Positions 13,875-59,439 of a stretch of DNA of 64,000 nucleotides are shown piece by piece. Both the position numbers and the translations under genes were made by a program. The stretch's first letter is position 1. The number at the start of each line of letters is the position of its first letter. This DNA comes from an uncultured candidate division WWE3 bacterium. Its GTDB lineage: Bacteria; Patescibacteriota; WWE3; UBA101185; UBA10185. The notes below the pieces were generated by a model. It was not told the DNA's origin and made no database searches. It worked only from the letters and a program-made list of their open reading frames with translations. The DNA is taken from positions 263,837 to 327,836 of the forward strand of contig CAVXUZ010000005.1 in the NCBI GenBank assembly GCA_963765125.1, given 5' to 3'.

Positions 13875-14603
13875 GTGACTACATACAGACCACGCAAAAA
13901 ATCTATAGATTCCGAAACATTAGAGATGCGAAGAAAGCTTTCTCTTTCTTTGGTAGGAATTTTTGGCTTTATAATTATTTCTCTAGTATCGCTTAGTTTC
14001 TTTGGGCCACAGATAGGCTCAATCTTCGGTTTTATTTCTATTAATAGAAATCAGCAAGTACCTGAAGCAAAAGCTACTATTGCACCACCTTCATTTGTGG
14101 CACTACCTAAAGCAACAAAAGAAAAGACACTTAAACTTGAAGGTTACTCAAACTCCGGCTCAACTGTAAAATTATTTGTTAACGGCCCTGAAAAAGGTTC
14201 TGTTCTTACTGCGGCTGATGGAAAGTTTGTCTTTGATTCAGTAGACCTTATTGACGGAAGAAACACTATATTTGCAAAGGCCGTTGACGAAAAGGGTAAC
14301 GAGAGTGAACGTTCGGAAACTCACACGATTACCATTGATACGAAAATTCCAAAGGTTACTATTACCGCACCGTCGAACGGTGAAACTGTTAAAAATCTTA
14401 ATGAGCGCGTTCTTGTTAAAGGTGAGGTAAGTGAAAAAGCAAAAATAACCGTCAATGGAAAACTCGCGGTGCAGCGTGCTGACCAATCATTTGAATATTT
14501 ACTAGGGGTAGACGATGGCGATGTAGAAATCAGCGTAGAGGCGGTCGATGAGGCTGGTAATTCATCAAAAGAAAAAATATTCATAAAGTACGAAAAAAAC
14601 TAA
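13875..14603 (+). CDS. signal-anchored cell-surface protein with bacterial Ig-like repeats
   Basis: N-terminal TM (LVGIFGFIIISLVSL) followed by beta-rich repeats of the BIg type. The start is probably the internal Met at about 13923. Confidence 0.45.
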   Translation: MTTYRPRKKSIDSETLEMRRKLSLSLVGIFGFIIISLVSLSFFGPQIGSIFGFISINRNQQVPEAKATIAPPSFVALPKATKEKTLKLEGYSNSGSTVKLFVNGPEKGSVLTAADGKFVFDSVDLIDGRNTIFAKAVDEKGNESERSETHTITIDTKIPKVTITAPSNGETVKNLNERVLVKGEVSEKAKITVNGKLAVQRADQSFEYLLGVDDGDVEISVEAVDEAGNSSKEKIFIKYEKN

Positions 14604-15793
14604 GAGTCTATTAACGCATACAAACTAATCCAAAAAAACATAATTTGCGGAAAAAACAGCGAATTGATGAATTGCGATTCTAAGATAAAGCTAAAAATAA
14701 TTGCTGCTGTAAAATAACTTGGGGCAGAAAGCAGCGGAAAGAAGAAGGCTAATATAAATATTATAAAACCAATGATTCCCGTAGTAGCCAGAACAAGCAG
14801 AAAGCTCGAGTCTGAGCCTGAAGCGCTGTGGTCCTCGAGGGTGTCTGGGGTTAAATAACCATAATTTACCTTCTCTGCCTTTAAATTGTTAAATCCCACC
14901 CCAAGTATTAAATTATCTTCTACTATCTCAAAAGTATTTCTCCAAGATATTAATCGAAAATGCGCTGAATCTGCGGGGTCAGTTAAGCCCGCCAACCTTG
15001 TTTGAATTCGTGGAATTGCAAAGTAAGCAGAAAAAATCAAAATTAAAGCCGCAAAGATAATAAACACTGATTTTTTCAACCCGTAAATAAATATTACAAC
15101 CGCAAACATCCCCCAAGCACTTCGTGAATATGTTAAGAACAATGCTAAAAGAGAAATTGCAAAAACAGCCCTAAAAAGTCTCTTTGAAAATATTTCTCTT
15201 TTGAATAATAAAACAGTAATGCAAAGCACTAAGTAGGCACCTAGAAAATTTGGGTCAAAAAAAGTACTAGCTAGTCGGTTTTTATGAGGATCCCAACCCA
15301 AGGACGGATCTAAGACCGTAAAATCGGGCAAAATAATCAGCTGTGCAAAACCTAAAACGCTTAAAATAACGCCTGAAATCACAAAGTATTTAAATAACTT
15401 AGCTACATCCAGATACTTATTTTTAACTGCAGAGAAAGTAACAACACCAGAAAGTAAATAAACTACCCATCGCACAAGATAAAAGAAAGCAAATAGTAAG
15501 TCTTCGCCAGAATTTTTAGAATATACGGGAATCAGAGATGCTGCAGCAATTATCGTAAACACTAGAAATAAAACAATATTTCTAGGAATTACTATTTTTT
15601 CCTTTTTTATCAAATATTGAAATATTCCTACAAAAGTGTACAAACCAACCAATAAATCAAAAAGATAGATTTTCTGCACTCCCCCGCCAAAAAGAAATGA
15701 AATATCAGAAAATTGGCTGAGAGTTAATGAGGCAAGAACAATAATAAATAACTTATTTAGCATAGTATGCTCGCCATGCCTTTCTGGCAGCAA
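14600..15793 (-). CDS. O-antigen ligase / polymerase-like (Wzy_C family) polytopic membrane protein
   Basis: About 10 predicted TM helices with a large periplasmic loop. It sits in the glycan cluster next to the flippase. Confidence 0.55.
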   Translation of the reverse strand: MLPERHGEHTMLNKLFIIVLASLTLSQFSDISFLFGGGVQKIYLFDLLVGLYTFVGIFQYLIKKEKIVIPRNIVLFLVFTIIAAASLIPVYSKNSGEDLLFAFFYLVRWVVYLLSGVVTFSAVKNKYLDVAKLFKYFVISGVILSVLGFAQLIILPDFTVLDPSLGWDPHKNRLASTFFDPNFLGAYLVLCITVLLFKREIFSKRLFRAVFAISLLALFLTYSRSAWGMFAVVIFIYGLKKSVFIIFAALILIFSAYFAIPRIQTRLAGLTDPADSAHFRLISWRNTFEIVEDNLILGVGFNNLKAEKVNYGYLTPDTLEDHSASGSDSSFLLVLATTGIIGFIIFILAFFFPLLSAPSYFTAAIIFSFILESQFINSLFFPQIMFFWISLYALIDS

Positions 15794-17030
15794 AGATTAG
15801 CATAAAAAATACTAGCAATTCTGAAATGTGGGTGGTTACAGTCGCACCATAAAGTGAATATCTTGGTATAACAACTAAATTAACTGCCAAGTTAAAAACA
15901 GCAGCAATAAAATATACCCAAGGAAGATATTTCTGCTTTTCTAGGGTTACAATAAGCCATGATAGTGGCTGGGTGAGGTAATAAATCACCAAACCACCTA
16001 AAAGAATTTGTAAGACTAAAACTGACTTTGTAAACTCCGCGCCGCCAAGAAACGAAATTGCAAAAGGTGACGCTACTATACCCACCATACCTGCAACAAT
16101 TCCCGCTGAAAAAAGAAACAAAAACACATTTTTTAACGTCTTTTTAATCTTGTCTTTACCTTCGAACAAATGCCTGACCATTACTGGGTAAACTGAATTC
16201 ATAAAAAAGGTCGGTACAACCAACGCAACTTCAAATATTTTGTATGGTAAAGAATAAACTGCGACAGTCTCGGTGTTATTAAGACCATACTTAGTTGGTA
16301 GTTTTAACACTGATAAAAGAATTTCGTCTTCTTTAAAGTTGAGCTGACTAAACACAAACATAATGCCTAGTGGTAAAGTCTGCGCCAAAAGATACCCAAT
16401 CAGCTTTTTATCGATTTCAAATTTAATTTGTACATCTAGGCGCTTCAACATCTTTAAAGCAATTAAAAATGTGAGAAAACCACCGAGAACATAGCTAAAG
16501 CTAATCCACAAGACATTTAGATTTAAGTATGAAAAAAGCAGCAATCCGGCAAGAACAATAATGTAACCCGCAACAAGAGCAACGGTTGATAGGTCATAAC
16601 GCATCTTTGTTTGAAACGCTATGTTTGTCGTAGTAAATAGAGATTGGGTTAAAATTAAAAATAGACTTAGTCGAATTCCAAATTTTAAACCCTCACTGTA
16701 TGGAAAAAACGTAAGAGCTCCCCACAATAGCGCAATAAAAAATACAGAAAATGCAATTCTGAGAAAAAGAATATTACCGAGGTATTTTCCTGCTTTAGAA
16801 AAATCTTTTGATAGTTCTCGGGTAGCAATTGCGTTTAATCCAAAGTCTGCAATTATAAATACTAGCGCCGGCCAACTTTGCATAAGACTAAATTCTCCAT
16901 ACGATTCCCTACCATAAAATCTCGTAATGAGAATTGTACCTAATACAGTAATTGACATTGTTGTCACCTTACCAATGATTTGGTAGATAGTATTACTGGC
17001 TATTTTTATTGTAGTGGCGCTTTTAATCAT
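15753..17030 (-). CDS. polysaccharide biosynthesis protein / Wzx-like flippase (MOP superfamily)
   Basis: 425-aa polytopic membrane protein with the typical Wzx N-terminal region (IYQIIGKVTTMSITVLGTILITRFYG). Confidence 0.6.
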   Translation of the reverse strand: MIKSATTIKIASNTIYQIIGKVTTMSITVLGTILITRFYGRESYGEFSLMQSWPALVFIIADFGLNAIATRELSKDFSKAGKYLGNILFLRIAFSVFFIALLWGALTFFPYSEGLKFGIRLSLFLILTQSLFTTTNIAFQTKMRYDLSTVALVAGYIIVLAGLLLFSYLNLNVLWISFSYVLGGFLTFLIALKMLKRLDVQIKFEIDKKLIGYLLAQTLPLGIMFVFSQLNFKEDEILLSVLKLPTKYGLNNTETVAVYSLPYKIFEVALVVPTFFMNSVYPVMVRHLFEGKDKIKKTLKNVFLFLFSAGIVAGMVGIVASPFAISFLGGAEFTKSVLVLQILLGGLVIYYLTQPLSWLIVTLEKQKYLPWVYFIAAVFNLAVNLVVIPRYSLYGATVTTHISELLVFFMLIFAARKAWRAYYAK

Positions 17031-17032
17031 GT

Positions 17033-18262
17033 TTATTCGCAGGACGAGAAATCTATATTCTCCACCGTTAAATGCGGAGGATTCCCGCTTATTTTATCAA
17101 GGGATTTCACTGCGTCAAAATGCTCATAAGGTACATTATCTTCGTTAATCCACGAAAAATGATCATAGGGAGCTTCATATTTTATAGTAAACGGTGTTAC
17201 TGCTCTTACACGATCATCTTTAAGCCACACTTCTTCGAATGCAATCTTTATATATTCAGAAACTGTCTTCGCATTTAAAAATGCTGAGCTGTAGTTTTTT
17301 CCTTCGGCGTGCGCCCAACCAGTCTCTGTAATAAATACTGGAAGTTCTTTTTTAACACCTAATTCGTTTTTTAGAAAATTAAGTTCATCTTCGTATGCGC
17401 GAATGCTCCATCTTCCTGTTGCCCTCGGACCACCACTAAAGTTTGGTTGAGGATAAGGGTGCGATGCCCAGCCATCAAGCCTGTTAAATATTCCTGGAAC
17501 TTTTTCATCCATTTTTTTCATGTATTCAAATGCATCCATATGTCTGTCGTCTGTTGGCGCAGTAATATTGAAAGCACCATTAATCATAAAGTACGTCGAA
17601 TTAGTATTTTTAAATGTTGTAATTGTGTAATCAAGAATTTCTGCGTACTCGCCTGGATAAACTCTGTCATACCAAAACCTCGAATCATTCATTTCGTTAT
17701 AAACGCTTACATATCTGTCTCGAATCGGCCAGGCAAACTTATTTAAAAACTCTGCGGCGTCTCTCGTTTGTTTTTCATATTCTTCAGTGTCAATATCCCA
17801 GAGCTGAATAATCGGTATAAGATGCTTGTTCCTAAGCTGATCAAACACTCTAAACCACTTAGAAAAATCTCTATCTTTAACGTTATAAGGTATTAAAACG
17901 TATCCCCAATCGCCTCCATTTGAATTAACAAGATTTTGTGCGGTTTCAAAGAAATCTTTATTTTCTGCGTAAATATACAACCCAAACTTATTATTTTTAT
18001 CCCAAGGGCTGTCTACATAAAAAGAATAATTAATACCTTGCGTAATGCCACAGTCTTGCTCTATAGGTGGCAAGCTATTATCTGACGCGGTAGGAGGCAG
18101 CGGCATAGGTTTTTCAAGCATACGTGAATCATCTCTCTTGTAGATTTGCGAAATCAGTTTTCTTCCCTTATCTGACGTAAGTAAACTATGCAGCCCTAAA
18201 AGTAGTCCAAAAACAACAATAAAGGACAATAAAATGTGCATAAGTTTAATCCTGTGCATCAA
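17033..18262 (-). CDS. signal-anchored putative clan GH-A (TIM-barrel) glycoside hydrolase
   Basis: N-terminal TM. A YNEMN acid/base-like motif and an ITETGW nucleophile-like motif are characteristic of GH-A-clan hydrolases. Family not assignable. Confidence 0.45.
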   Translation of the reverse strand: MMHRIKLMHILLSFIVVFGLLLGLHSLLTSDKGRKLISQIYKRDDSRMLEKPMPLPPTASDNSLPPIEQDCGITQGINYSFYVDSPWDKNNKFGLYIYAENKDFFETAQNLVNSNGGDWGYVLIPYNVKDRDFSKWFRVFDQLRNKHLIPIIQLWDIDTEEYEKQTRDAAEFLNKFAWPIRDRYVSVYNEMNDSRFWYDRVYPGEYAEILDYTITTFKNTNSTYFMINGAFNITAPTDDRHMDAFEYMKKMDEKVPGIFNRLDGWASHPYPQPNFSGGPRATGRWSIRAYEDELNFLKNELGVKKELPVFITETGWAHAEGKNYSSAFLNAKTVSEYIKIAFEEVWLKDDRVRAVTPFTIKYEAPYDHFSWINEDNVPYEHFDAVKSLDKISGNPPHLTVENIDFSSCE

Positions 18263-18319
18263 ATAATTTTATCATTTAATCATTAACCGATGTGGCTATG
18301 ATTACAAAATGAAGGTAAA

Positions 18320-19555
18320 ATGACTCCTGTGAATAAATCGGCATTTATTAAAATCGGTATTTCCGTTATAGCGTTAGCTCTTGTTATAACTGGTTTGGTG
18401 ATTTTTACAAAAAAACATAACGGAAACCTGAGTATTTTATCCCCACTTAGTAAAACCTTCAGTATCTTTTCATTCGCAGGCACCGGAGAGCCACCTATAA
18501 AAGAGGTTTACGGCTACCTTCCATACTGGACGATTATTGACTCGAAATACTTACAAATGGATAAGCTTACTGATATTGCCTATTTTGGGCTCCATATCAA
18601 CGAGGACGGTTCGTTTTTAAAAGTTGAAGATGGCGAACTTAATCCTGGGTACAACAACTGGAAAAACAATAAAGAACTACTTGAAGTAATCAAAAATGCA
18701 AAAAAACACAATGTAAAATTTGCCTTAACAGTAATTTCACACAGAGACGACGTTTCGGACAAATTTTTAGACTGTCGTGAATGTTGGGTTACCCTAACCG
18801 ATAATATAATCGCTGAGCTTTTAGACAAAGGGATCAAAGATGTAAATCTAAACTTTGAGTATGCAGAGTACACACCGATTGAAAAAGCAAAACAATTTAC
18901 GGAATTTACCAAATATATAAACGAAAGGCTCGATGAAACATTCGGCGACTCTAAAATCGTAGTATCATCTTTTGCCGACTCTATTGTAAAAGAAAGAGTG
19001 TCAGAAATTGAAGGGTTGAGTAAAGTTGCAGACCGAATATTTATCATGGCGTATGATTTTCACCGCCCAACTTCAGACACAGCAGGACCAGTTGCACCAA
19101 TGGGCGGAAAGGGAGTGCACGCAGAATACGATATCGAAACAATGATGAATGATTACCTATCAAAAGTCCCGCCAAATAAGCTACTACTCGGCGTACCTTA
19201 TTACGGATACAACTGGGTAGTTGAGAGCGAAGATCAATATTCAAAACGTATTGAAGGCACAGATGACAACGGCTTTTCACAATCGCAAACATACCAAAAT
19301 GTAATGGAAACAATACTCAAAGTTAAACCAGAACTAAGATGGGACGACCTAGCAAAAACTCCTTACTTTACATACATCAGCCCCGACACCGGATACACAC
19401 GTGAAGTCTATTTTGACAACGTCGAATCATTATCATTTAAATACAATATGGTAATTGAAAAAGATTTAGCGGGTATTGGTATTTGGGCACTGGGCTACGA
19501 TGGGGGTTACGACGATTTATGGAATCTGATTGATAGGTTTTTTAAAAGAAACTAA
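18320..19555 (+). CDS. signal-anchored GH18 family (chitinase-like) protein with a degenerate catalytic motif
   Basis: GH18 landmarks are present: YGYLPYW, MAYDFH and AGIGIWALGYDG. The DxxDxDxE box reads DVNLNFE. Confidence 0.55.
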   Translation: MTPVNKSAFIKIGISVIALALVITGLVIFTKKHNGNLSILSPLSKTFSIFSFAGTGEPPIKEVYGYLPYWTIIDSKYLQMDKLTDIAYFGLHINEDGSFLKVEDGELNPGYNNWKNNKELLEVIKNAKKHNVKFALTVISHRDDVSDKFLDCRECWVTLTDNIIAELLDKGIKDVNLNFEYAEYTPIEKAKQFTEFTKYINERLDETFGDSKIVVSSFADSIVKERVSEIEGLSKVADRIFIMAYDFHRPTSDTAGPVAPMGGKGVHAEYDIETMMNDYLSKVPPNKLLLGVPYYGYNWVVESEDQYSKRIEGTDDNGFSQSQTYQNVMETILKVKPELRWDDLAKTPYFTYISPDTGYTREVYFDNVESLSFKYNMVIEKDLAGIGIWALGYDGGYDDLWNLIDRFFKRN

Positions 19556-19733
19556 AAAAAATATGCAGAGATAAAAATAGATTGTTGGTATATAGATTTT
19601 GCAAAAACCAATCTCTTAATCGCATTTTCTAAGTATAATTTTTGTTATACAATTTTTATTTATTCTACAAGTAATTACACCTTAATACCTCGATATATCA
19701 AGCCTATTATAACTTCTCAAAAGTCAGTAGCAA

Positions 19734-19762
19734 TTGACACTATAGGTTATTTGTGTTAAAAT
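19734..19762 (+). promoter_or_regulatory. near-consensus sigma70 promoter (TTGACA-17-TAAAAT) driving the GC-rich cassette ORF
   Basis: Exact TTGACA at 19734..19739 and TAAAAT at 19757..19762. Confidence 0.6.
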
Positions 19763-19767
19763 ACTCA

Positions 19768-19780
19768 GGTTTGAGAGTTC
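19768..19780 (+). repeat. left arm of a 13-bp perfect inverted repeat (GGTTTGAGAGTTC) at the predicted transcription start
   Basis: Reverse complement of 20232..20244. Confidence 0.7.
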
Positions 19781-19843
19781 ATTAGGCCGTTTAATCAATA
19801 GGGACCTAAAATAAAGGACCCAACTACCAAATAAGGAGTTAGA

Positions 19844-20224
19844 ATGGCTACCTATATAAAAGGAAGCAATAACGGCGTAGTAGCAATCGTTACTGCGCGG
19901 ACTTACGATAAAATGGAGGTTCGCAATCAGCTTGTAGCTGAATGTGAAAAGAAGGGCATACCCCTTCCGCAACTCCCCCCGGTAACACCAGTATTCACCT
20001 TTTCGTCCGAGGAGCATCCAGCTTTCAAGTTTATGACCGGCAGCTTCGCATTACTCGAAAAGTTACTTAATGGGCATGACGTAAAGAACGGAAGTATTTG
20101 GGTGCCTTTTTCAAATGGTACTCAATGGGGGCACGATCCGGCGGCTCGTTGGGAACTTGATTTTATGACTTCCCTCGACGAGGTATTCGAAGCATTCGAT
20201 ATCAATGTAGCAATTAATCGCTAA
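19844..20224 (+). CDS. hypothetical protein (126 aa) in a GC-rich IR-flanked cassette
   Basis: SD sequence AAGGAGTTAGA before the ATG. Coding GC is visibly higher than surrounding DNA. Own promoter and terminator. No recognisable motif. Confidence 0.5.
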   Translation: MATYIKGSNNGVVAIVTARTYDKMEVRNQLVAECEKKGIPLPQLPPVTPVFTFSSEEHPAFKFMTGSFALLEKLLNGHDVKNGSIWVPFSNGTQWGHDPAARWELDFMTSLDEVFEAFDINVAINR

Positions 20225-20231
20225 TCTGATC

Positions 20232-20244
20232 GAACTCTCAAACC
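20232..20244 (+). repeat. right arm of the 13-bp perfect inverted repeat (GAACTCTCAAACC), 8 nt after the stop codon
   Basis: Exact reverse complement of 19768..19780. Confidence 0.7.
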
Positions 20245-20247
20245 AAG

Positions 20248-20296
20248 CGCCGTAAGCTATGGAATTTTACAATTCCCTCTATCTTACGGCGTTTTT
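20248..20296 (+). terminator. rho-independent terminator (nested double hairpin GCGCCGTAAG...CTTACGGCG + T5)
   Basis: 9-bp outer stem, inner GGAATT/AATTCC palindrome, and a T-run. Confidence 0.65.
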
Positions 20297-20340
20297 CGTT
20301 TTAACAAAAAGGTCCGCTTACCACCGTTGATGATAATCGG

Positions 20341-20417
20341 ACTTTTTGGTGGGCTCAACAGGATTCGAACCTGTGACCTCTCGAATGTGAATCGAACGCT
20401 CTAACCGGCTGAGCTAT
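20341..20417 (-). tRNA. tRNA-Val (anticodon CAC), CCA encoded
   Basis: The reverse complement folds: acceptor GGGCTCA/TGAGCCC, anticodon stem TTCGA/TCGAG, loop TTCACAT, T-arm ACAGG-TTCGAAT-CCTGT. Length 77 nt. Confidence 0.8.
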
Positions 20418-20529
20418 GAGCCCAAACATTGAACCAAAACAAATTTTACCCCATCACCAAACAAAAAACACTCTGTCTTGGCCTAAAAAACGTAATGCTA
20501 TTTTACATCATTTGCTCTAAAATTATTCT

Positions 20530-21084
20530 ATGCCTAAAGTTAAATTTAAAAAGTTTTCGGAGGCACTACTAGATTTTATTGAAATCTCGATTATCGGGGC
20601 AACTATTTTTATTCTTGTTTATCTTTTTGTCGGTCAGCTGCTGGAGGTTTCGGGAGATTCTATGCACCCTACGCTGGTTGACGGCGAGCAGATTATCGCC
20701 GAAAAGGTTTCTATGGCTGTAAAACCTCTTGAACGTGATGAGATTGTGATTTTTAGGCACCCTGAGAAGCAGGATAGATTGTTGATTAAACGCGTTATAG
20801 GACTGCCTGGCGATGTATTTAGGTTTGAAGATGGAATAGTAGTATTAAACGGTGAACCCCTCTTAGAACCCTATTTGGTTGACGCAGGGCATACATTTGG
20901 TAGTGATGTTTACAATAACGGTGAAGACTACTCTATCCAAGACGGGTCGTATCTATTACTAGGAGATAATCGTGAGGAAAGCGCAGATTCAAGATCTTTT
21001 GGTACTATAAAACAGGATTTGATTTTGGGAAGAGCTTTATTGGTATATCACCCAATTAAAAACTTTAGGGTAATCGAACATTAA
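20530..21084 (+). CDS. lepB: signal peptidase I
   Basis: S26 boxes: GDSMHPTL (catalytic Ser), the KRVIGLPGD region, and LLGDNREESADSRSFG. Confidence 0.85.
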   Translation: MPKVKFKKFSEALLDFIEISIIGATIFILVYLFVGQLLEVSGDSMHPTLVDGEQIIAEKVSMAVKPLERDEIVIFRHPEKQDRLLIKRVIGLPGDVFRFEDGIVVLNGEPLLEPYLVDAGHTFGSDVYNNGEDYSIQDGSYLLLGDNREESADSRSFGTIKQDLILGRALLVYHPIKNFRVIEH

Positions 21085-21322
21085 CCTTTTTCTTGGTCTT
21101 GTTTTTGAAAGCAAATTCAACTATTCCAGCGATTTTTGAAAATATTGTGAAGTCCTTGCCCATTGCAACGTTTTCACCAGGAAGATATTTCTGACCAATT
21201 TGTCTAACGATAATCTGACCAGGTTTTACCACTTCTCCACCGAAGGCTTTAATACCTCTTCTTTTTCCTGCTACATTCCCACCTTGTTTAGCCGATGCAC
21301 CACCGGCCTTTTTATGTGCCAT
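21065..21322 (-). CDS. rpmA: 50S ribosomal protein L27
   Basis: MAHKKAGGAS...GKRRGIKAFGGE...IIVRQIGQK is the canonical L27 N-terminus. Confidence 0.85.
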   Translation of the reverse strand: MAHKKAGGASAKQGGNVAGKRRGIKAFGGEVVKPGQIIVRQIGQKYLPGENVAMGKDFTIFSKIAGIVEFAFKNKTKKKVNVRLP

Positions 21323-21325
21323 ATA

Positions 21326-21838
21326 TTATTCTTGAACTTTCTTGGGTCGTCCCCTCTTTTTTGGTGATTCGACGGCCTCTTTAACTTTAACTTTAACGGG
21401 TTTTGCTTCTTTTTTTGGTGATGCTTTTGCAACAACCTTTTTCTCAACTTTTTCTGTTTTTACTGGCTTTTCAGCTTTTTCAGCTTTAATAGGTTTTTCT
21501 TTAACAATTGGCTGTTCTTTAGCAACTTCAACCTTTTTAGCACCTTTAAAAATACCTTTGACTTCGATTATGCTAATTGGTTGTTTGTGACCTTTTACTT
21601 TTCTGTAACGTGATTTTGCTCTAAATCTTCCTATTCTTATTTTTCTATCTCTTGTGTCTTCGAGCTTCTCTAACTGTACTGTGTAATCAGTTAAAACAGG
21701 TGTACCTACAACTACTTCTCCGTTTAAAGAGACAAGTACAACATCGGCATTAAGCTCTTGCTGCCTTTCAATTTTGATTTTAGTACCTTCCTGTACTTTA
21801 AATTGTCTTCCGCCAAGGCGGATTACTGCATAGTCCAT
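21326..21838 (-). CDS. rplU: 50S ribosomal protein L21 with a 65-aa Lys/Ala/Pro/Glu-rich C-terminal extension containing an AT-hook (PKKRGRPKK)
   Basis: MDYAVIRLGGRQFKVQEG is the L21 N-terminus. The C-terminal tail is a low-complexity KxEK repeat ending in an RGRP motif. Confidence 0.85.
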   Translation of the reverse strand: MDYAVIRLGGRQFKVQEGTKIKIERQQELNADVVLVSLNGEVVVGTPVLTDYTVQLEKLEDTRDRKIRIGRFRAKSRYRKVKGHKQPISIIEVKGIFKGAKKVEVAKEQPIVKEKPIKAEKAEKPVKTEKVEKKVVAKASPKKEAKPVKVKVKEAVESPKKRGRPKKVQE

Positions 21839-21882
21839 AGGAAACAGAATGAATAGTACTATATATGAGCCTTTGTTTCAAG

Positions 21883-22203
21883 CTAAAAGTAGTCAAATAC
21901 CTGTAGTTGTTCGACAAGGGGAAAACTGTCATCTCCTGCGATCCTGTTTTTCCTTATAAAACCGCACTTTTCACACTCATTAACAAGAACTTCTTCGCCG
22001 TCTGGTTTATAAATTTTACCCTTCGGACGCATTAAACCGTTACATTTTGACTTTCTATCGCCTGGCTCCTCATCAACATGCACTGAATATAGACAAAACG
22101 GACAATGATTACGATTTTTTGTTCCCGGTGCTTCTTGAGGAACTTTTTTGTTACATTTTTTGCAGGTAAAATACTTAGAGTTTTGCATCAGAACCAACAA
22201 CAA
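21883..22203 (-). CDS. zinc-ribbon protein with an RNHCPFC motif (RNHCP-domain-like)
   Basis: CKKC...RNHCPFC...CEKCG pattern with four Cys pairs. The likely start is the internal MQNSKYF. Confidence 0.45.
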   Translation of the reverse strand: MLLVLMQNSKYFTCKKCNKKVPQEAPGTKNRNHCPFCLYSVHVDEEPGDRKSKCNGLMRPKGKIYKPDGEEVLVNECEKCGFIRKNRIAGDDSFPLVEQLQVFDYF

Positions 22204-23524
22204 TTATTACATCGTATTGCGAGGTTTCTTCAAGGTCTGTTTGCACTACAACTGTAAAGGTGTCTTTCATACTTTCGGTAAGTATGGTTTGATAATCTTT
22301 CTTACTTCCTTTAAGTTTAATAAGCGTATCGGTACGTGCAGAATCTGTAGAATTGCCAATGGCTTCAACTTTGTAACCAGCTTTTTCTAAAAACTCTTGT
22401 GTTTTTGCAGCAATACCTGCAACGCCTGCACCATTCTCAACGCTGATTTTTAAATCTTCTTTTTTCAATTCTGATTTTGGCGCCTCAACTTGTGGCTCTG
22501 GTGTATTATTTGTTGCGTCTTGACTTAGAACCTCATTTTGTGCTGGTTGGGTTGGTGATTTATCAGGTTCGTTTGAACCCTTATTAAGCATGTTTAACCC
22601 AAATATTCCTGCAAATACAATGGCAAGAACGCCTCCCCCGATATATATGGGCACCAAGCTCTTATCTTTCTTAATTACTGGCACGGGCAAATGCGTAAGT
22701 AAGTTAATTTTTGAAAATACAGCTGCTGAGTCCTTTCCTACAGTCTGGCTAACTAAAAGGTGTAATTCGTAGCCTTTTGCCTCGGCTAAATCACTATTTG
22801 GAATCTCAACCTTTAGTACCTCATAACCTGGGTTAAGAGAAAAGCTATCATAGTTGTAAACGTATACTTTATTTATTGGCGAATTTCTTTTATAGATTGA
22901 GAGGTCGGTAATTAATTTTTGTAATTCTTCAGTTGATTTTTCTTTTTCGTATACTCCTGAGAAAAATACACCATTAAATTCTGACAGCGCGACGATTTGC
23001 TTGTCTGCAGATTTCGATATAAAGATTGCCGGGTCATTAATGCCAACCGTCTTTGGTAAAAATAATATCCAAGGGTAAACACCGCGCAAACCAATCCCCA
23101 ATTTATTTGAAACATCAATATACTTTTCTAAAATCTCTTTTCTTATCCCAATAAACTGATAGACAAATGGGGCAACCTTAAGATATGAAAAATACATTTC
23201 TTCGAGTGTTGTTTCTTTTACTTTTTCTCTTGTCTCCAAAGTTAGCTGGTCTTCTAAACTACCACCGTTTTTATTTACTGTTACGAACTTGAGAATCACG
23301 TCCTGGGGTTCAACAATAAAATTTAAACCTAAAGAACCAGTACCCTTTTTTGTGATCGTGGAGATTAAATCCCTCATCGCGGAGGTGAATTCTTCGATAT
23401 TAATAATCTCATGTCCCTTTACTACGTCAGTAGCAACACTGGCCGAAACGCCTTTAAATTCACCGTTTTCTACAGTGCTTATCTTTAGGGTGTTTTCGCT
23501 TACTGAGACTATTAAATCTTGCAT
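22175..23524 (-). CDS. bitopic protein with a LytR_C-type C-terminal domain and a cytoplasmic N-terminal domain of unknown function
   Basis: A single mid-protein TM (IYIGGGVLAIVFAGIFGL), a P/Q/E-rich linker, and a C-terminal VENGAGVAGIAAKTQEFLEKAGY...VVVQTD segment matching the LytR_C pattern. Confidence 0.5.
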   Translation of the reverse strand: MQDLIVSVSENTLKISTVENGEFKGVSASVATDVVKGHEIINIEEFTSAMRDLISTITKKGTGSLGLNFIVEPQDVILKFVTVNKNGGSLEDQLTLETREKVKETTLEEMYFSYLKVAPFVYQFIGIRKEILEKYIDVSNKLGIGLRGVYPWILFLPKTVGINDPAIFISKSADKQIVALSEFNGVFFSGVYEKEKSTEELQKLITDLSIYKRNSPINKVYVYNYDSFSLNPGYEVLKVEIPNSDLAEAKGYELHLLVSQTVGKDSAAVFSKINLLTHLPVPVIKKDKSLVPIYIGGGVLAIVFAGIFGLNMLNKGSNEPDKSPTQPAQNEVLSQDATNNTPEPQVEAPKSELKKEDLKISVENGAGVAGIAAKTQEFLEKAGYKVEAIGNSTDSARTDTLIKLKGSKKDYQTILTESMKDTFTVVVQTDLEETSQYDVIIVVGSDAKL

Positions 23525-38896: not shown

Positions 38897-41747
38897 TTAT
38901 ATCAAGGTTGTGCTCAATAACCACGACAGTATTTCCTCTAGCAGTAAGTCTTTTTATTATGGTTATAAGCCTTTCTAGGTCAGCAAAATGTAAACCAGTA
39001 GTAGGCTCATCTAGAATATAAAGTGTTGAGCCTGTTGACCGTTTTGATAACTCTAGCGCAAGCTTTACTCTTTGTGCTTCTCCTCCAGAAAGTGTTGGAG
39101 CAGGTTGTCCTAGTCTAATGTAACTTAATCCTACATCATGAAGTGTTTGTATTTTTCTTCTAAGGATCGGGATATTTTCAAAAAACTGCAGTGCCTCGTC
39201 AACGGTCATATCTAAAACATCGCTAATATTTTTTCCTTTATATAATATTTCCAAAGCTTCTCTGTTATATCTTTTACCTCCACATACTTCACAGCTCACG
39301 TATACATCCGGCATGAACTGCATTTCTATCTTTATTTGCCCCTCCCCACCACAAGATTCACACCTACCGCCTTTAACATTAAAACTGAATCTACCCATTT
39401 TATAGCCGCGTATCTTTGCCTCCTCTGTTTTTGAAAATAGCTCTCTTATGTGGTCAAACGTTTTTGTATATGTTGCTGGATTTGATTTTGGAGTTCTCCC
39501 AATAGGACTTTGGTCTATCGCGATTAGTTTGTCGAGATTATTTGCTCCAATAATATCTACGTACGGTTCTGGTCTTTCATCATTTTTAAGGCCGAAATGC
39601 TGCCTCAAAGCGCGGTAAAACGTATCCATCACAAGTGTTGATTTTCCGCTTCCTGATACGCCAGTAACACAAATAAATTTACCGAGTGGAATCTCAAAAT
39701 CTATATTTTTAAGGTTTCTACCCGAAGCTCCAACAAGTTTTATACTTTTGCCATCCAACTTCTTTGATAACTTATGGTTCATCTCATCGTCTAGTAATTC
39801 ATCTATGCTTTGTTGAATTTTAATATCATTTTTTCCTACAACTTTCTTACCGGATAAATATTGTCCAGTTATAGAAATTTTATTTTTTATTATCTCTTCA
39901 GGCGTACCTTCGGCAATTACTTGACCGCCGTGCTCGCCAGCGCCAGGGCCAAAATCAAAAATATAATCACACTCCAACATAGTATCCATATCGTGTTCAA
40001 CAACTACGACTGTATTTCCTAAATCGCGCAAATATTTTAATGTTCTGATTAATTTTCCTTGGTCGCGCTGATGCAAACCAATTGAAGGCTCGTCTAAAAC
40101 GTACAAAACTCCAGAAAGACCAGAACCGATTTGTGAGGCAAGTCTAATTCTTTGGGCCTCTCCTCCTGATAGTTGTGACGATGATCTGGATAAAGTTAAA
40201 TAGCCTAGCCCGACATCCATCAAAAACTTTACTCTATAATTAATTTCTTTTAACAACGCGTCGGCTATCTGTTTCTCTCTAATAGTTAGTTTGTCTGGAA
40301 GTTCAATAAACCAGCTTTGTAGCACAGTTATAGGCAATTCTGATATTTCATAAATATTCTTTTTATCAATTACTACAGAGAGTGGTTCCCTTTTTAATCT
40401 CGTGCCTTTACACTCTGGGCATTCATCACGAACCATGTATTTCTCAATTTCACGCCTTATAAAATCAGATTTTGTTTCTTTGTATCTACGTTCAAGATTT
40501 GGAATAACCCCCTCAAATCTAGCTTTAAATTTGTGGTCATTTCCATCACCATCCCGATAACCAACTGTAAATCTTTGATTTTCTGGAGCACCGTAGAGAA
40601 TTATTTCTACTTCTTCTTTCTTTAAATCTTTTATTGGCGTGTTTACTGAAAAGTTATATTCCTTTGTTACTGCATCGACTACTTTTGAAATCCATGTTGT
40701 GTGTTCAAAGATTCTTGTCCAAGGAAATATTCCACCTTCTGAAATTGAGAGCTCAGGATTATAAATTGTGTTTTTATCAATTTCGAGCTGTGTACCTAAA
40801 CCGTCACACTTTAAACACGCTCCATGAGGCGAGTTAAATGAAAAAGTCCTCGGCTCTATGTCAGCAAGTGAGATGTTACAAACTGGGCATGCAAAATTTT
40901 CTGAAAAAAGATGATCTTCAACATTTTTAGGATTCTCCGAAAATTCAAATTCCTTATCTTTTACAATCGATAAGACTATGTTTCCGTTAGCCAGTCGCAG
41001 CGCTGTTTCAATATTCTGATATAGCGTACTACGAAACTCAGCGGCGTATTCTTTCACGCTCATTCTTTTTTTATTTACTACAGACCTTGTTATAAGAGCC
41101 TCAATCGTATGTTTATTTGTCTTTAGTAACGCAATATCTTCACCAACTCCCCTAATTACGTTGTCTATTCTTGCCCTTATGATTCCTTGTTTTTTGAGAT
41201 TATCAAATAGGCTTGAATATTCACCTTTTCGGTCTCTTATAATTGGCGCCAAAATTATAAATCTAACGCCTCTCTCACTAGAGTAGTCTTCGTCTTGGAT
41301 TAGTAATTTTTCTGTTTGTTCGGCGATCTCTTGCGCTGATTGTCTTTGAATCTCTCTTCCGCACTCAGGACAATGTGGATGACCAACTCGTGCAAAAAGT
41401 AATCTCATAAAATCGTAAATTTCTGTAATTGTACCAACCGTTGATCTTGGATTTCTTGAGGTTGTTTTTTGATCTATGGCAATTGCGGGTGATAATCCTT
41501 CTATCGTATCTACATCGGGTTTATCCATCACGCCTAAAAATTGACGAGCGTAAGCAGATAAACTTTCTACATAGCGTCTTTGCCCATCGGCGTATATTGT
41601 ATCCATCGCAAGTGAAGACTTACCAGATCCTGAAACACCGGTAAAAACGATAAATTTATTTTTTGGAATCTCAATATCAACATTTTTTAAATTATGCTGT
41701 CTTGCTCCTTTTACGATAATGTGGCTTAGCGCTGATTTATCAATCAT
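38739..41747 (-). CDS. uvrA: excinuclease ABC subunit A
   Basis: Two ABC ATPase modules (GVSGSGKSSLA and GVSGSGKSTL) and Zn-finger Cys pairs. 1002 aa. Confidence 0.95.
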   Translation of the reverse strand: MIDKSALSHIIVKGARQHNLKNVDIEIPKNKFIVFTGVSGSGKSSLAMDTIYADGQRRYVESLSAYARQFLGVMDKPDVDTIEGLSPAIAIDQKTTSRNPRSTVGTITEIYDFMRLLFARVGHPHCPECGREIQRQSAQEIAEQTEKLLIQDEDYSSERGVRFIILAPIIRDRKGEYSSLFDNLKKQGIIRARIDNVIRGVGEDIALLKTNKHTIEALITRSVVNKKRMSVKEYAAEFRSTLYQNIETALRLANGNIVLSIVKDKEFEFSENPKNVEDHLFSENFACPVCNISLADIEPRTFSFNSPHGACLKCDGLGTQLEIDKNTIYNPELSISEGGIFPWTRIFEHTTWISKVVDAVTKEYNFSVNTPIKDLKKEEVEIILYGAPENQRFTVGYRDGDGNDHKFKARFEGVIPNLERRYKETKSDFIRREIEKYMVRDECPECKGTRLKREPLSVVIDKKNIYEISELPITVLQSWFIELPDKLTIREKQIADALLKEINYRVKFLMDVGLGYLTLSRSSSQLSGGEAQRIRLASQIGSGLSGVLYVLDEPSIGLHQRDQGKLIRTLKYLRDLGNTVVVVEHDMDTMLECDYIFDFGPGAGEHGGQVIAEGTPEEIIKNKISITGQYLSGKKVVGKNDIKIQQSIDELLDDEMNHKLSKKLDGKSIKLVGASGRNLKNIDFEIPLGKFICVTGVSGSGKSTLVMDTFYRALRQHFGLKNDERPEPYVDIIGANNLDKLIAIDQSPIGRTPKSNPATYTKTFDHIRELFSKTEEAKIRGYKMGRFSFNVKGGRCESCGGEGQIKIEMQFMPDVYVSCEVCGGKRYNREALEILYKGKNISDVLDMTVDEALQFFENIPILRRKIQTLHDVGLSYIRLGQPAPTLSGGEAQRVKLALELSKRSTGSTLYILDEPTTGLHFADLERLITIIKRLTARGNTVVVIEHNLDIIKNSDFVFDLGLEGGAGGGEVVFSGSLSELVNNKTSYTAEALRELKRLQKRD

Positions 41748-58592: not shown

Positions 58593-59439
58593 TACGAGAT
58601 CTAGAATTTTGTCTTACCTCTTGCTCTGATGGCACAATCGGCTTCTTTGTTACTGCCCTTAAACTAGGCTGCGCGCTTTTAGCAAAATCTTTTACAATTT
58701 TGTCTTCTAACGAATGAAAGGTTATAACCAGTATTCGTCCACCAGGCTGTAAGAGGCGCGCAGCCTGAGGCAGTGCATTACTTAAATTTTCAAGTTCATC
58801 GTTCACAGCGATTCGCAACGCTTGAAACGTTCTCGTCGCAGGATTAATCCTGCCATTCTCATAATTTGAAGGAGCTACACCAGCTAAAAGATCTGATAAA
58901 TCTTTAGTTGTTTGAAACCTCTTCACCCCACGAGCTTTTACAATTGCTGCTGTAAAAGATTTTGCCATTCTCTCACCGCCGTATGCCCCAATAATCTGCG
59001 CAAGTTGTGTTTCCGGTAAGCTATTTACCAGATCTGCTGCGGTTACGCTAAGATTTTTGTCAAGCCTCATATCGAGAGGTCCGTCGCTTTGAAATGACAA
59101 ACCTATACCTGCGTCTTCTAGTTCATATGAGCTGTAACCAAGATCGAGTAATATTCCATTGACCTTGTTAAATCCGCTCTCATTTACTATTTTTTCTAAA
59201 TTTTTAAAGTTCCCTATCTTGCCTACAAAATTCTGCGTAACTAGCTCGGCGGCAAATCTTTCTTCTGCTCTATGAATTGCAGCCTCATATACATCTATTC
59301 CCAGCACCCTTGAACCTTTTTTCAAAAGTTCTAATGAATGCCCACCATCTCCTAGTGTGCAATCAACAAAACTTTTGCCCTCCTCAGGCTGCATAAACTC
59401 CACAGTCTCCTTAAGCATTACAGGTTCGTGGTATTTCAT
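58561..59439 (-). CDS. rsmH: 16S rRNA (cytosine1402-N4)-methyltransferase RsmH (MraW)
   Basis: HEPVMLKE start, a SAM-binding GxGxH motif (DCTLGDGGHS), and the MraW C-terminal region. Confidence 0.9.
   Translation of the reverse strand: MKYHEPVMLKETVEFMQPEEGKSFVDCTLGDGGHSLELLKKGSRVLGIDVYEAAIHRAEERFAAELVTQNFVGKIGNFKNLEKIVNESGFNKVNGILLDLGYSSYELEDAGIGLSFQSDGPLDMRLDKNLSVTAADLVNSLPETQLAQIIGAYGGERMAKSFTAAIVKARGVKRFQTTKDLSDLLAGVAPSNYENGRINPATRTFQALRIAVNDELENLSNALPQAARLLQPGGRILVITFHSLEDKIVKDFAKSAQPSLRAVTKKPIVPSEQEVRQNSRSRSAKLRVYERI

What the first reader, a model, noticed from the sequence alone, without database searches (positions are those of the whole stretch)
19734..20340. GC-rich single-gene cassette next to tRNA-Val with a consensus promoter, double-hairpin terminator and perfect 13-bp inverted repeats at both transcript ends
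The 126-aa ORF at 19844..20224 is visibly GC-richer than its surroundings. It has an exact TTGACA-17-TAAAAT promoter, an SD sequence, and a strong nested terminator. The 13-mer GGTTTGAGAGTTC begins at about the predicted +1 (19768..19780). Its exact reverse complement lies 8 nt after the stop codon (20232..20244). The whole unit sits immediately 3' of tRNA-Val(CAC) on the opposite strand. Two readings fit. The terminal IRs may mark a small mobile or horizontally acquired cassette. Alternatively, the mRNA may form a 5'-3' panhandle that encloses the entire coding region, for RNase III processing, stability control or circularisation. The protein has no recognisable motif.
Basis: seen in the sequence. 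Interest (0 to 1): 0.65.

Follow-up and report, generated by a model that had tools for sequence, protein, structure and literature searches.

The report
End-paired mRNA of orphan CPR gene
A small stand-alone gene of an uncultivated (Patescibacteria) bacterium makes an mRNA whose first bases pair with the bases just after its stop codon, a feature kept by compensating changes in relatives, and it encodes a protein family with no known function or matching fold.

Summary
A near-consensus promoter, a Shine-Dalgarno site, a 126-aa ORF, a nested terminator and a perfect 13-bp inverted repeat (19768-19780 / 20232-20244) sit beside tRNA-Val, and the gene is GC-rich for its genome.

The repeat is an mRNA feature, not a mobile-element end. 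Homologues in other Patescibacteria keep the promoter, 5'UTR and terminator. Their 5'/3' arms differ in sequence but stay complementary: cognate duplexes average -22.5 kcal/mol, non-cognate -13.8 (permutation p about 5e-6). Full-length folds predict the pairing with probability 0.69-1.0 in 10 loci. The 5' arm starts at the predicted +1 and the 3' arm ends 2-9 nt before the terminator.

The closest known analogue is the 14-nt 5'/3'-UTR interaction of Bacillus subtilis hbs mRNA. The hok mRNA end-pairing is similar.

Every family 5'UTR also carries a GGACC-loop-GGACC hairpin found nowhere else in the loci.

The unit is accessory. Three syntenic relatives lack it at the GH18/tRNA-Val site, and no neighbour is shared between loci. 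Excess GC occurs in all 14 loci, so it does not date the acquisition.

The protein is acidic, restricted to Patescibacteria where named, unannotated, and models at pLDDT 97 with no PDB or viral fold match. Function remains inferred.

The parts
19734..19762 (+). Sigma-70-type promoter. It consists of -35 TTGACA (19734-19739), a 17-nt spacer with a conserved CTATAGG (19740-19746) and TGTG (19752-19755), and -10 TAAAAT (19757-19762). The predicted +1 is about 19768-19770.
   Evidence: It scores 11/12 with a TG extended -10. TTGACACTATAGG...TGnTAnAAT is kept in L001, L009, L010, L011 and L020 although synonymous sites are near saturation. The motif is unique as a promoter in the window.
19768..19785 (+). 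5' arm of the long-range helix. It comprises the 13-nt perfect part (19768-19780) and a 5-nt inner extension (19781-19785), and it begins at the predicted transcript start.
   Evidence: The pairing probability with the 3' arm is 1.0 in the full-length fold. Homologues show compensatory changes.
19801..19821 (+). Family-specific 5'UTR hairpin, GGGACC-loop-GGACCC. The stem is two-fold symmetric with a central A.A mismatch.
   Evidence: GGACC-N5-10-GGACC occurs once in the window, against 0.11 expected. In the 25 family loci that hold the motif, it lies only in the family 5'UTR. Loops vary (GAAA, UUCG-like, A-rich) while the stem sequence is fixed.
19833..19838 (+). Shine-Dalgarno AAGGAG, 5 nt before the ATG.
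   Evidence: Read directly from the sequence. It is conserved in homologues.
19844..20224 (+). Coding sequence for a 126-aa acidic protein (pI 5.3) of an unannotated family found in Patescibacteria.
   Evidence: Eight close homologues were found, and 121 representative clusters at 50% identity. Third-codon-position changes total 1050, against 461 and 379 at positions 1 and 2. The AF2 model has pLDDT 97.1. There is no hit in Pfam, NCBIfam, PHROGs, PADLOC or PDB. There is no fold match.
20226..20244 (+). 3' arm of the long-range helix. It comprises the inner part (20226-20230), a bulged C at 20231 and the perfect 13-mer (20232-20244). It starts 2 nt after the stop codon and ends 2 nt before the terminator stem.
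20245..20298 (+). Extended intrinsic terminator: an outer stem, a conserved asymmetric internal loop, an inner GGAAUU/AAUUCC stem, then a T-run.
   Evidence: The MFE fold shows it. RNAalifold on 5 loci predicts 19 pairs, 4 of them with compensatory double changes. Eight cells are G.U and none is A.C.
20311..20347 (.). Weak hairpin (GGTCCG...CGGAC) flanked by an A-run and a T-run. It may act as a bidirectional terminator shared with the convergent tRNA-Val.
   Evidence: Read from the sequence. It was not picked up by the terminator scan and is not conserved in other loci.
20347..20423 (-). tRNA-Val(CAC), convergent with the unit. It is native to this site in relatives.
   Evidence: ARAGORN and Rfam detect it. 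The same tRNA lies between the GH18 gene and the signal-peptidase gene in L030 and L031.
19556..20346 (.). DNA present here but absent from the syntenic site of relatives. It consists of a 178-nt AT-rich spacer plus the promoter-to-terminator unit, on the 3' side of tRNA-Val.
   Evidence: In L030 the tRNA-Val starts 1 nt after the GH18 stop. In L029 the signal-peptidase gene starts 17 nt after the GH18 stop. L031 has a different insert of about 1 kb at the same spot.

Best explanation
This is a self-contained, strongly expressed single-gene transcription unit. It encodes a small acidic protein of unknown function from a family seen, where organisms are named, only in Patescibacteria.

Its mRNA is closed by base pairing. 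The first nucleotides (+1 to about +18) pair with the nucleotides that follow the stop codon. That helix sits directly against the terminator hairpin, so both RNA ends are buried in one structured domain.

The most likely role of this end-pairing is to protect the 5' end and leader from 5'-end-dependent and leader-cleaving ribonucleases. This would give a long-lived mRNA, as shown experimentally for the 14-nt 5'/3'-UTR interaction of Bacillus subtilis hbs mRNA.

A second conserved element is a symmetric GGACC/GGACC hairpin upstream of the ribosome binding site. In some relatives it contains the ribosome binding site or the start codon. It is probably a binding site for an unknown trans-acting factor that controls translation.

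What is shown:
- the anatomy;
- that the gene is coding;
- conservation and covariation of the pairing;
- predicted folding;
- the accessory status of the unit.

What is inferred:
- the transcript ends;
- the stabilising effect;
- the role of the hairpin;
- high expression.
For: **Anatomy.**

**Conservation of non-coding parts.** The promoter, 5'UTR and terminator are conserved in L001, L009, L010, L011 and L020, while third codon positions differ at 55-60%.

**Covariation of the arms.**
- The arm sequences differ between loci but stay complementary: GGUUUGAGAGUUC, ACUGAGUGG, ACUGAGGAGUUCGG, AUGGCU, CCUAGAAG, GGUGGGG and GGCGGG.
- Cognate duplexes average -22.5 kcal/mol against -13.8 for non-cognate pairs. 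The permutation p is about 5e-6 over 13 loci.
- Among 7 loci of similar GC, 2 of 5040 exact permutations reach the observed sum.
- Against composition-preserving shuffles, z is -2.3 to -5.6 in 9 loci.
- In-register compensatory changes occur at 5 helix positions.

**Predicted folding.** Full-length partition-function folds give P(5' arm: 3' arm) of 0.69-1.0 in 10 loci. The window transcript has MFE z = -5.85.

**Position of the arms.**
- The 5' arm begins at +1 to +4 of the predicted start in the window, L001, L009, L010, L011, L012, L019 and L020.
- The 3' arm ends 2-9 nt before the terminator stem.
- In L014 and L015, which lack the pairing, the predicted transcript starts directly at the GGACC hairpin. 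The 5' end is therefore structured in both designs.

**Terminator.** It shows 4 compensatory pairs.

**Experimental precedent.** The hbs long-range interaction is 14 nt and fully complementary. It lies just upstream of the terminator and was confirmed by compensatory mutants to restrict RNase Y cleavage and to stabilise the transcript (PMC5737220).
Against: - No transcript ends, RNA probing or half-life data exist for this organism.
- Strand asymmetry of the pairing is weak. The summed duplex energy is -253 kcal/mol on the plus strand against -240 on the minus strand, and 18 of 201 pairs are G.U. Sequence alone therefore does not exclude a DNA-level inverted repeat.
- Helix length varies from 6 to 18 bp. 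The pairing is absent in the more distant L014, L015 and L016, so it is not essential to the family.
- In the window and L019 the 3' arm starts 2 nt after the stop codon, so terminating ribosomes would open the helix.
- Whether this lineage has RNase J or RNase Y was not checked.
- The protein is acidic (pI about 5), which argues against simple autoregulation through the GGACC hairpin.
Confidence: 0.6

Rival explanations
1. hok-like translational control by mRNA end-pairing. The full-length end-paired mRNA would be a stable but poorly translated store. It would become active only after 3' trimming or ribosome-driven opening of the helix, and the unit would behave as a selfish or addiction-type module.
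For: - Pairing of the very 5' end with the 3' end, kept by covariation, is the defining feature of the hok fold-back inhibition element (literature listed).
- The unit is accessory, stand-alone and sits in variable, tRNA-adjacent places.
- In L021, L023 and L016 a GGACC hairpin contains the Shine-Dalgarno site or the AUG.
Against: - The protein is 110-190 aa, soluble and acidic, not a small membrane toxin.
- The panhandle does not sequester the Shine-Dalgarno site, which lies about 50 nt away.
- No conserved antisense promoter or overlapping leader ORF was seen, and flanks beyond the terminator are not conserved.
- There is no PADLOC hit.
Confidence: 0.12
2. RNase III processing stem. The long-range helix would be cut on both strands, as at the stems flanking 16S and 23S rRNA. 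This would release a mature mRNA without its 5' triphosphate end and terminator.
For: - In the window the helix is 18 bp with one bulge and encloses the whole coding region, as rRNA processing stems do.
- 5'/3'-UTR duplexes are RNase III targets in S. aureus icaR (PMC3868564).
Against: - In most loci the continuous helix is only 6-11 bp with internal loops (L001 9+5, L012 6, L019 8, L013 7). That is short of the roughly two helical turns RNase III usually needs (general knowledge).
- Cutting would remove the conserved terminator hairpin that protects the 3' end.
- The helix starts at +1, so there is no 5' flank to remove.
Confidence: 0.12
3. DNA-level inverted repeats. Either they are the ends of a small transposable cassette, or they are recombination sites of an invertible segment that flips the coding region relative to its fixed promoter (phase variation).
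For: - A perfect 13-bp inverted repeat flanks the gene.
- The unit is accessory and found in different contexts.
- A large serine recombinase gene lies 343 nt downstream in L001-L008.
- Strand asymmetry of the pairing is weak.
Against: - The conserved unit extends beyond both arms, with the promoter to the left and the terminator to the right.
- The arms diverge faster than the flanking regulatory DNA.
- Helices contain bulges, internal loops and G.U pairs.
- There is only one copy in the window, no target duplication and no recombinase near it in the window.
- All 10 independently assembled contigs of the P0005 type have the gene in the promoter-sense orientation.
- There are no phage, plasmid or viral-contig matches.
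Confidence: 0.06
4. Chance inverted repeat with no function.
For: Perfect 13-nt inverted repeats within 600 nt occur about 0.9 times per shuffled window. Three others exist in this window, inside ORFs.
Against: Complementarity is retained with different sequences in at least 9 independent homologous loci, at the same two positions of the transcript.
Confidence: 0.02

Closest known systems
5'/3'-UTR long-range interaction of Bacillus subtilis hbs mRNA (Braun, Durand and Condon 2017, PMC5737220)
   Same: - A monocistronic mRNA for a small protein, with a strong Shine-Dalgarno site and a structured leader.
- A 13-14-nt fully complementary pairing between the 5'UTR and the sequence just upstream of the intrinsic terminator.
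- Similar predicted duplex energy: about -19 kcal/mol for hbs and -21 to -27 here in the low-GC loci.
   Different: - In hbs the 5' partner lies inside the leader, after two hairpins, and overlaps an RNase Y site. Here it starts at the first transcribed nucleotides.
- Here the support is natural covariation across genomes, not mutants.
- The protein is unrelated to HBsu, and the host lineage is Patescibacteria.
- An extra GGACC hairpin is present.
Fold-back inhibition (fbi) end-pairing of hok-family mRNAs (type I toxin-antitoxin)
   Same: The extreme 5' end pairs with the 3' end of an mRNA of about 400-500 nt. The pairing is kept by covariation among homologues, and the units are stand-alone and accessory.
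   Different: The product is not a small hydrophobic toxin. No antisense RNA gene or overlapping leader ORF was found. The pairing abuts a terminator rather than a 3' tail that is trimmed.
icaR mRNA 5'/3'-UTR pairing in Staphylococcus aureus (PMC3868564)
   Same: An intramolecular 5'UTR-3'UTR duplex in a bacterial mRNA.
   Different: In icaR the 3'UTR pairs with the Shine-Dalgarno region, blocks translation and recruits RNase III. Here the Shine-Dalgarno site is not part of the duplex.
5'-terminal stabiliser stem-loops (ompA, aprE and ermC type; general knowledge)
   Same: A base-paired 5' terminus with at most a few unpaired nucleotides. In L014 and L015 a local 5' hairpin takes the place of the panhandle.
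   Different: In those cases the partner strand is local. Here it lies about 460 nt downstream, next to the terminator.

Membership tests
Bacterial mRNAs with a 5'/3'-UTR long-range interaction (hbs type) | Complementary segments in the 5'UTR and in the 3'UTR just upstream of the terminator of the same transcript. | tested here: met
   The pairing joins 19768-19785 with 20226-20244, and the 3' arm ends 2 nt before the terminator stem. The same layout occurs in 9-10 homologous loci.
Bacterial mRNAs with a 5'/3'-UTR long-range interaction (hbs type) | The pairing is functional: compensatory changes restore it. | tested here: met
   Only natural covariation could be tested. Cognate versus non-cognate permutation gives p about 5e-6 and 2 of 5040. 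In-register double changes occur at 5 positions. Engineered mutants were not possible.
Bacterial mRNAs with a 5'/3'-UTR long-range interaction (hbs type) | The pairing alters ribonuclease access and mRNA half-life. | not testable with these tools
   This needs half-life measurements in wild-type and RNase-mutant reporter hosts.
hok/sok-type type I toxin-antitoxin mRNA | 5'-end to 3'-end pairing of the full-length mRNA. | tested here: met
hok/sok-type type I toxin-antitoxin mRNA | The product is a small (under 60 aa) hydrophobic membrane toxin. | tested here: not met
   The product is 126 aa, with GRAVY -0.14 and pI 5.3, and folds as a soluble alpha/beta protein.
hok/sok-type type I toxin-antitoxin mRNA | A cis-encoded antisense RNA with its own promoter. 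| tested here: inconclusive
   Only weak minus-strand promoter-like sites (9/12) were found near the 3' end. Flanks beyond the terminator are not conserved between loci.
Transposable element or MITE with terminal inverted repeats | The inverted repeats form the outer boundary of the conserved or mobile unit. | tested here: not met
   Conservation runs from the -35 box to the terminator T-run, outside both arms.
Transposable element or MITE with terminal inverted repeats | Target-site duplication and multiple copies. | tested here: not met
   No flanking direct repeat was found. There is a single copy of the 13-mer and of the gene in the window.
Invertible DNA segment (inverton) | Both orientations are present in populations, with a nearby invertase. 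| tested here: inconclusive
   Ten assembled contigs of one homologue all show the same orientation. There is no recombinase near the unit in the window. Raw reads could not be examined.
RNase III processing stem | A continuous double-stranded helix of roughly two turns. | tested here: not met
   The window has 18 bp with a bulge, but most homologues have 6-11 bp plus short secondary helices.
tRNA-adjacent genomic islet | Present or absent at a conserved syntenic site next to a tRNA gene. | tested here: met
   L029 and L030 lack it. L031 has a different insert at the same place.
tRNA-adjacent genomic islet | An integrase, and a duplicated tRNA 3' end (att repeats). | tested here: not met
   There is no integrase ORF next to the unit and no repeat of the tRNA 3' end. 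A large serine recombinase is adjacent only in L001-L008.
Any described RNA family (Rfam 15) | A covariance-model match. | tested here: not met
   Only tRNAs pass the gathering threshold. Nothing relevant appears at E <= 10 in 19700-20350.
Any described protein family or fold | A profile or structural match. | tested here: not met
   [not shown]

The most novel reading that the evidence does not exclude
The promoter-to-terminator unit may be a new kind of relocating single-gene module of Patescibacteria. Its features would be:
- a protein with a previously unseen fold;
- an mRNA kept as a closed, long-lived molecule by covarying end-pairing;
- a symmetric GGACC operator hairpin that gates translation;
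- a tendency to settle at tRNA-adjacent hot spots, with no recombinase of its own in this window.

Such a module could be a selfish, addiction-type or anti-defence element with hok-like RNA logic but a soluble effector.
Probability: 0.12. Interest if true: 0.8.

Novelty: new member of a known kind. Interest (0 to 1): 0.52.

Why it matters
Experimentally supported 5'/3'-UTR pairings in bacterial mRNAs are few; hbs, icaR and the hok family are the examples found here. None of them is from the Candidate Phyla Radiation. None of the organisms named for this family is a cultured isolate, so gene-expression signals here are known almost only from sequence.

This case gives the clearest kind of comparative evidence. 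The arm sequence has turned over completely while complementarity is retained, at fixed positions of the transcript. It therefore offers a ready-made natural mutant series for testing how end-pairing controls mRNA decay.

It also flags three further things:
- a family-specific RNA hairpin that probably binds an unknown factor;
- a confidently modelled protein family with no structural relative in the PDB;
- an insertion hot spot beside tRNA-Val.

Tried and rejected
**Searches that found nothing**
- Rfam at gathering and at E <= 10 gave nothing but tRNAs.
- Pfam, NCBIfam, PHROGs, PADLOC and PDB sequence searches gave no family.
- The afdb50 library was not available.
- Viral contigs, the phage collection and the plasmid collection hold no relative.

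**Modelling**
- The first AlphaFold run, with 8 sequences, was poor (pLDDT 52.6). It was replaced by a run with 91 sequences.

**Ideas tested and dropped**
- A structured non-coding RNA (RNase P or tmRNA-like) mis-read as an ORF. The codon-position substitution pattern and the conserved protein family reject this.
- A retron-like a1/a2 repeat. No reverse transcriptase is present.
- An integron cassette. The unit has its own promoter and no attC-like site was looked for beyond the repeat scan.
- A conserved partner gene. No neighbour is shared between loci.

**Checks that were negative or inconclusive**
- Other copies of the 13-mer or of the promoter: none functional. The match at 55486 lies inside an ORF.
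- att-type repeats of the tRNA 3' end: none.
- Plus versus minus strand duplex energies to prove RNA-level pairing: inconclusive.
- Resemblance of the 3' arm to a tRNA-Val segment (14/16): judged to be chance.
- The other perfect 13-nt-or-longer inverted repeats of the window: they lie inside ORFs and are not comparable.
Full report
**1. Observation**

The region reads as the first stage described.
- The promoter is TTGACA (19734-19739), a 17-nt spacer, then TAAAAT (19757-19762). It scores 11 of 12 and has a TG extended -10.
- AAGGAG (19833-19838) lies 5 nt before the ATG at 19844. The ORF ends at 20224 and encodes 126 aa.
- GGTTTGAGAGTTC (19768-19780) has its exact reverse complement at 20232-20244.
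- In the minimum-energy fold the helix continues inward for 5 more pairs across one bulged C. It is followed at once by a nested terminator hairpin and a T-run.
- tRNA-Val(CAC) lies at 20347-20423 on the minus strand.
- The gene is a compositional outlier among 43 long ORFs of the window. Its GC is 46% against 37.7% (z = +3.4). Its GC3 is 45% against 30.8% (z = +4.2). Its codon-choice likelihood is below that of every other ORF (z = -3.8).

A perfect 13-nt inverted repeat within 600 nt is not remarkable on its own. The window holds four distinct ones, and shuffles give about 0.9. The case therefore rests on comparative evidence.

**2. It is a real protein gene of a conserved, unannotated family**

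- Eight close homologues at 59-100% identity were found.
- A profile search of 1.84 billion representatives found 121 clusters.
- A second word-indexed search found 126 proteins. All are 'hypothetical', and every source name that identifies an organism is a Patescibacteria lineage: WWE3, Saccharibacteria, Magasanikbacteria, Vogelbacteria or Woykebacteria.
- Conserved motifs are NNGV(T/V)A, P(I/V)FTF, TG, (W/Y)VPFSNG and TT..E..E.FG.
- Between close homologues, third codon positions carry 1050 differences against 461 and 379 at positions 1 and 2. The sequence is therefore coding, and synonymous sites are near saturation.
- The proteins are acidic, with pI about 4.3-6.9.
- With a 91-sequence alignment, AlphaFold2 gives pLDDT 97.1 and pTM 0.88.
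- Pfam, NCBIfam, PHROGs, PADLOC and PDB sequence searches are all empty.

**3. The whole transcription unit is conserved, not just the ORF**

Several non-coding parts are nearly invariant in L001, L009, L010, L011 and L020, despite saturated synonymous sites:
- the promoter, TTGACACTAT(A/G)GG...TGnTAnAAT;
- a 5'UTR block, AGGGACC-loop-GGACC(C/T)AACTACCAAA(A)TAAGGAG;
- the terminator, with the conserved inner part TATGGAA...TTCCCTCTATCTT.

Similarity stops a few bases upstream of the -35 box and at the terminator T-run. In the terminator, RNAalifold finds 19 pairs. Four have compensatory double changes, and there are eight G.U cells and no A.C cell.

**4. The 5'/3' pairing covaries**

The arms are the variable part of the non-coding sequence, yet they remain complementary.

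| Locus | 5' arm | 3' arm |
|---|---|---|
| window | GGUUUGAGAGUUC | GAACUCUCAAACC |
| L001 | ACUGAGUGG (plus GGGUC) | CCACUCAGU (plus GACCC) |
| L009 | ACUG(A)GGAGUUCGG | CCGAACGCCCAGU |
| L010 | ACUGAGAGUUU | AGAACUCUCAGU |
| L011 | CUGAGAGUUCG (plus GGUCG) | CGGACUCUCAG (plus CGGCC) |
| L012 | AUGGCU | AGCCAU |
| L019 | CCUAGAAG | CUUCUAGG |
| L013 | GGUGGGG | CCCCACC |
| L021 | GGCGGG, GCAG, GCAAGC | their complements |

(Sequences.)

- Among the four loci whose arms are alignable without gaps, double changes that keep the pair occur at five helix positions.
- Cognate 5'/3' segments form duplexes of mean -22.5 kcal/mol, against -13.8 for non-cognate combinations. None of 200,000 random permutations reached the observed sum (p about 5e-6).
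- GC differences between loci could inflate that test, so I repeated it exactly on seven loci of similar GC. Two of 5040 permutations reach the observed sum.
- Composition-preserving shuffles give z = -2.3 to -5.6 in nine loci.
- In partition-function folds of the full transcripts of about 500-630 nt, the arms pair with each other with mean probability 0.69-1.0 in all ten loci tested.

**5. Geometry**

- Where a clear -10 box exists, the 5' arm begins at the predicted +1 to +4. This holds for the window, L001, L009, L010, L011, L012, L019 and L020.
- The 3' arm begins 2-20 nt after the stop codon and ends 2-9 nt before the terminator stem. The helix can therefore stack on the terminator, and both RNA ends are held in one structured domain.
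- The more distant L014/L015 (about 48% identity) and L016 (about 45%) lack the pairing.
- In L014 and L015 the predicted transcript starts directly at the GGACC hairpin, so a local 5'-terminal stem-loop replaces the panhandle.

This substitution is what one expects if the selected property is a base-paired 5' terminus.

**6. A second conserved RNA element**

- GGACC-N5-10-GGACC occurs once in the window, against 0.11 expected.
- It occurs once in each of 23 family loci and twice in L021 and L023. It lies only in the family 5'UTR and nowhere else in the fetched loci.
- It folds as GG(G)ACC-loop-GGACC(C): a two-fold symmetric stem with a central A.A mismatch.
- The stem sequence is fixed, while the loop varies between GAAA, UUCG-like, AAAC and 7-9 nt A-rich forms.
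- In L021 and L023 the second copy carries the Shine-Dalgarno site in its loop. In L016 the hairpin includes the AUG.

A fixed, symmetric stem with free loops suggests recognition by a dimeric trans-acting factor, that is, a translational operator. This is inference. The acidic product is not an obvious candidate.

**7. Accessory status**

- The neighbouring GH18 protein has homologues at 64-73% identity.
- Their contigs keep the window's gene order: polysaccharide genes, GH18, signal peptidase S26, L27, L21, RNHCP, LytR.
- In L030, tRNA-Val(CAC) starts 1 nt after the GH18 stop.
- In L029 the S26 gene starts 17 nt after the GH18 stop.
- In L031 the same gap holds a different insert of about 1 kb with two small membrane ORFs.
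- Window 19556-20346 is therefore extra DNA on the 3' side of tRNA-Val.
- No neighbour gene is shared between any two family loci or with the window.
- In L011 a tRNA-Arg lies 200 nt downstream.
- In L001-L008 a large serine recombinase starts 343 nt downstream and its 3' end overlaps tRNA-Glu, where L001 and L003 diverge.
- There is no phage, plasmid or viral-contig relative.

The unit therefore relocates or is gained and lost, but the inverted repeats are not its ends. The mechanism of movement is unknown.

**8. GC-richness**

- The gene exceeds its flanks by 3.5-16 percentage points in all 14 loci, across host GC of 34-49%.
- The ribosomal protein genes L27 and L21 in the window are not GC3-rich.
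- The excess is therefore a property of the family. It may reflect selection on the mRNA, or a shared mobile gene pool. It is not a mark of recent arrival in this genome.
- The coding regions fold slightly better than synonymous-codon shuffles in 12 of 12 loci (mean z = -1.76). This is modest evidence for selection on RNA structure.

**9. Mechanism and comparison**

The closest experimentally characterised system is the B. subtilis hbs mRNA.
- It has a 14-nt fully complementary interaction between the 5'UTR and the sequence just upstream of the terminator (-19 kcal/mol).
- Single and compensatory mutants showed that the interaction exists in vivo, restricts RNase Y cleavage of the leader and affects the stability of the transcripts (PMC5737220).

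The present unit shares that layout. It differs in that the 5' partner is the very 5' end, as in the fold-back inhibition of hok mRNAs (literature listed).

I therefore favour end protection giving a long-lived mRNA (confidence about 0.6 for the whole statement, and about 0.85 for the narrower claim that the pairing is a selected feature of the RNA). The rivals are:
- hok-like translational latency (0.12);
- an RNase III processing stem (0.12), disfavoured by the short, interrupted helices in most loci;
- a DNA-level repeat for transposition or inversion (0.06), disfavoured by the boundaries, the single copy and the constant orientation in ten contigs, but not excluded because strand asymmetry is weak;
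- chance (0.02).

**10. Verdict**

- The panhandle reading is supported.
- The reading of the repeats as mobile-element ends is rejected.
- The accessory nature of the unit is supported.

The RNA feature is a new member of a known but sparsely populated kind, found in a lineage with no experimental RNA biology. It comes with two unexplained extras: the GGACC hairpin and a protein with no structural match in the PDB or among predicted viral protein structures.

Noticed in passing
L031:3647-4668 (the syntenic equivalent of window 19556-20346): A relative has a different insert of about 1 kb, with two small membrane-protein ORFs, at the same GH18/tRNA-Val gap. The insert begins with a promoter that resembles the cassette's (CTATAGG...TGTGTTATAATACTC). 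The gap looks like an insertion hot spot, perhaps with a shared promoter module.
   Followed up: partly
L001:4718-6503 (also L002-L008, L017, L018): A large serine recombinase gene (583-609 aa) starts 343 nt after the homologous cassette. Its 3' end overlaps tRNA-Glu on the minus strand. L001 and L003 are 99.8% identical up to position 6450 and unrelated beyond it. In L002 and L004 the recombinase gene looks disrupted.
   Followed up: partly
L011:1262-1337: In another locus the homologous cassette is again convergent with a tRNA gene, tRNA-Arg(GCG), which lies 200 nt after the stop codon.
   Followed up: no
window 39564-39578 / 40114-40128, and 58682-58696 / 58951-58965: Two other perfect 15-nt inverted repeats with gaps under 600 nt. 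Both lie inside long ORFs (1002 aa and 292 aa on the minus strand).
   Followed up: partly
window 20229-20244 versus 20391-20406: The 3' arm with its flank (ATCGAACTCTCAAACC) is 14/16 identical to a D-arm/anticodon-stem segment of the neighbouring tRNA-Val gene. The resemblance is not seen in other loci and is probably chance.
   Followed up: partly
window 19733-19706 (minus strand): A promoter-like site, TTGCTA-16-TATAAT (10/12), lies back to back with the cassette promoter. It points into the 178-nt AT-rich spacer and the 3' end of the GH18 gene.
   Followed up: no
window 19824-19831; L001, L009, L011, L019, L027 5'UTRs: The ACTACC(AA) motif between the GGACC hairpin and the Shine-Dalgarno site recurs in L019. 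It also recurs in the distant homologue L027 (30% protein identity), which lacks the GGACC motif.
   Followed up: no
L021:1603-1645, L023:1273-1325, L016:4966-4980: GC-richer family members carry two GGACC hairpins, the second holding the Shine-Dalgarno sequence in its loop. In L016 the single hairpin includes the start codon.
   Followed up: partly
[not shown]
   Followed up: no
window 14600-23524: The gene order around the unit is shared with WWE3-like relatives at 64-73% GH18 identity: Wzy/polysaccharide genes, GH18, signal peptidase S26, L27, L21, RNHCP, a LytR-like gene and FtsW. This places the window in that part of the Patescibacteria.
   Followed up: partly
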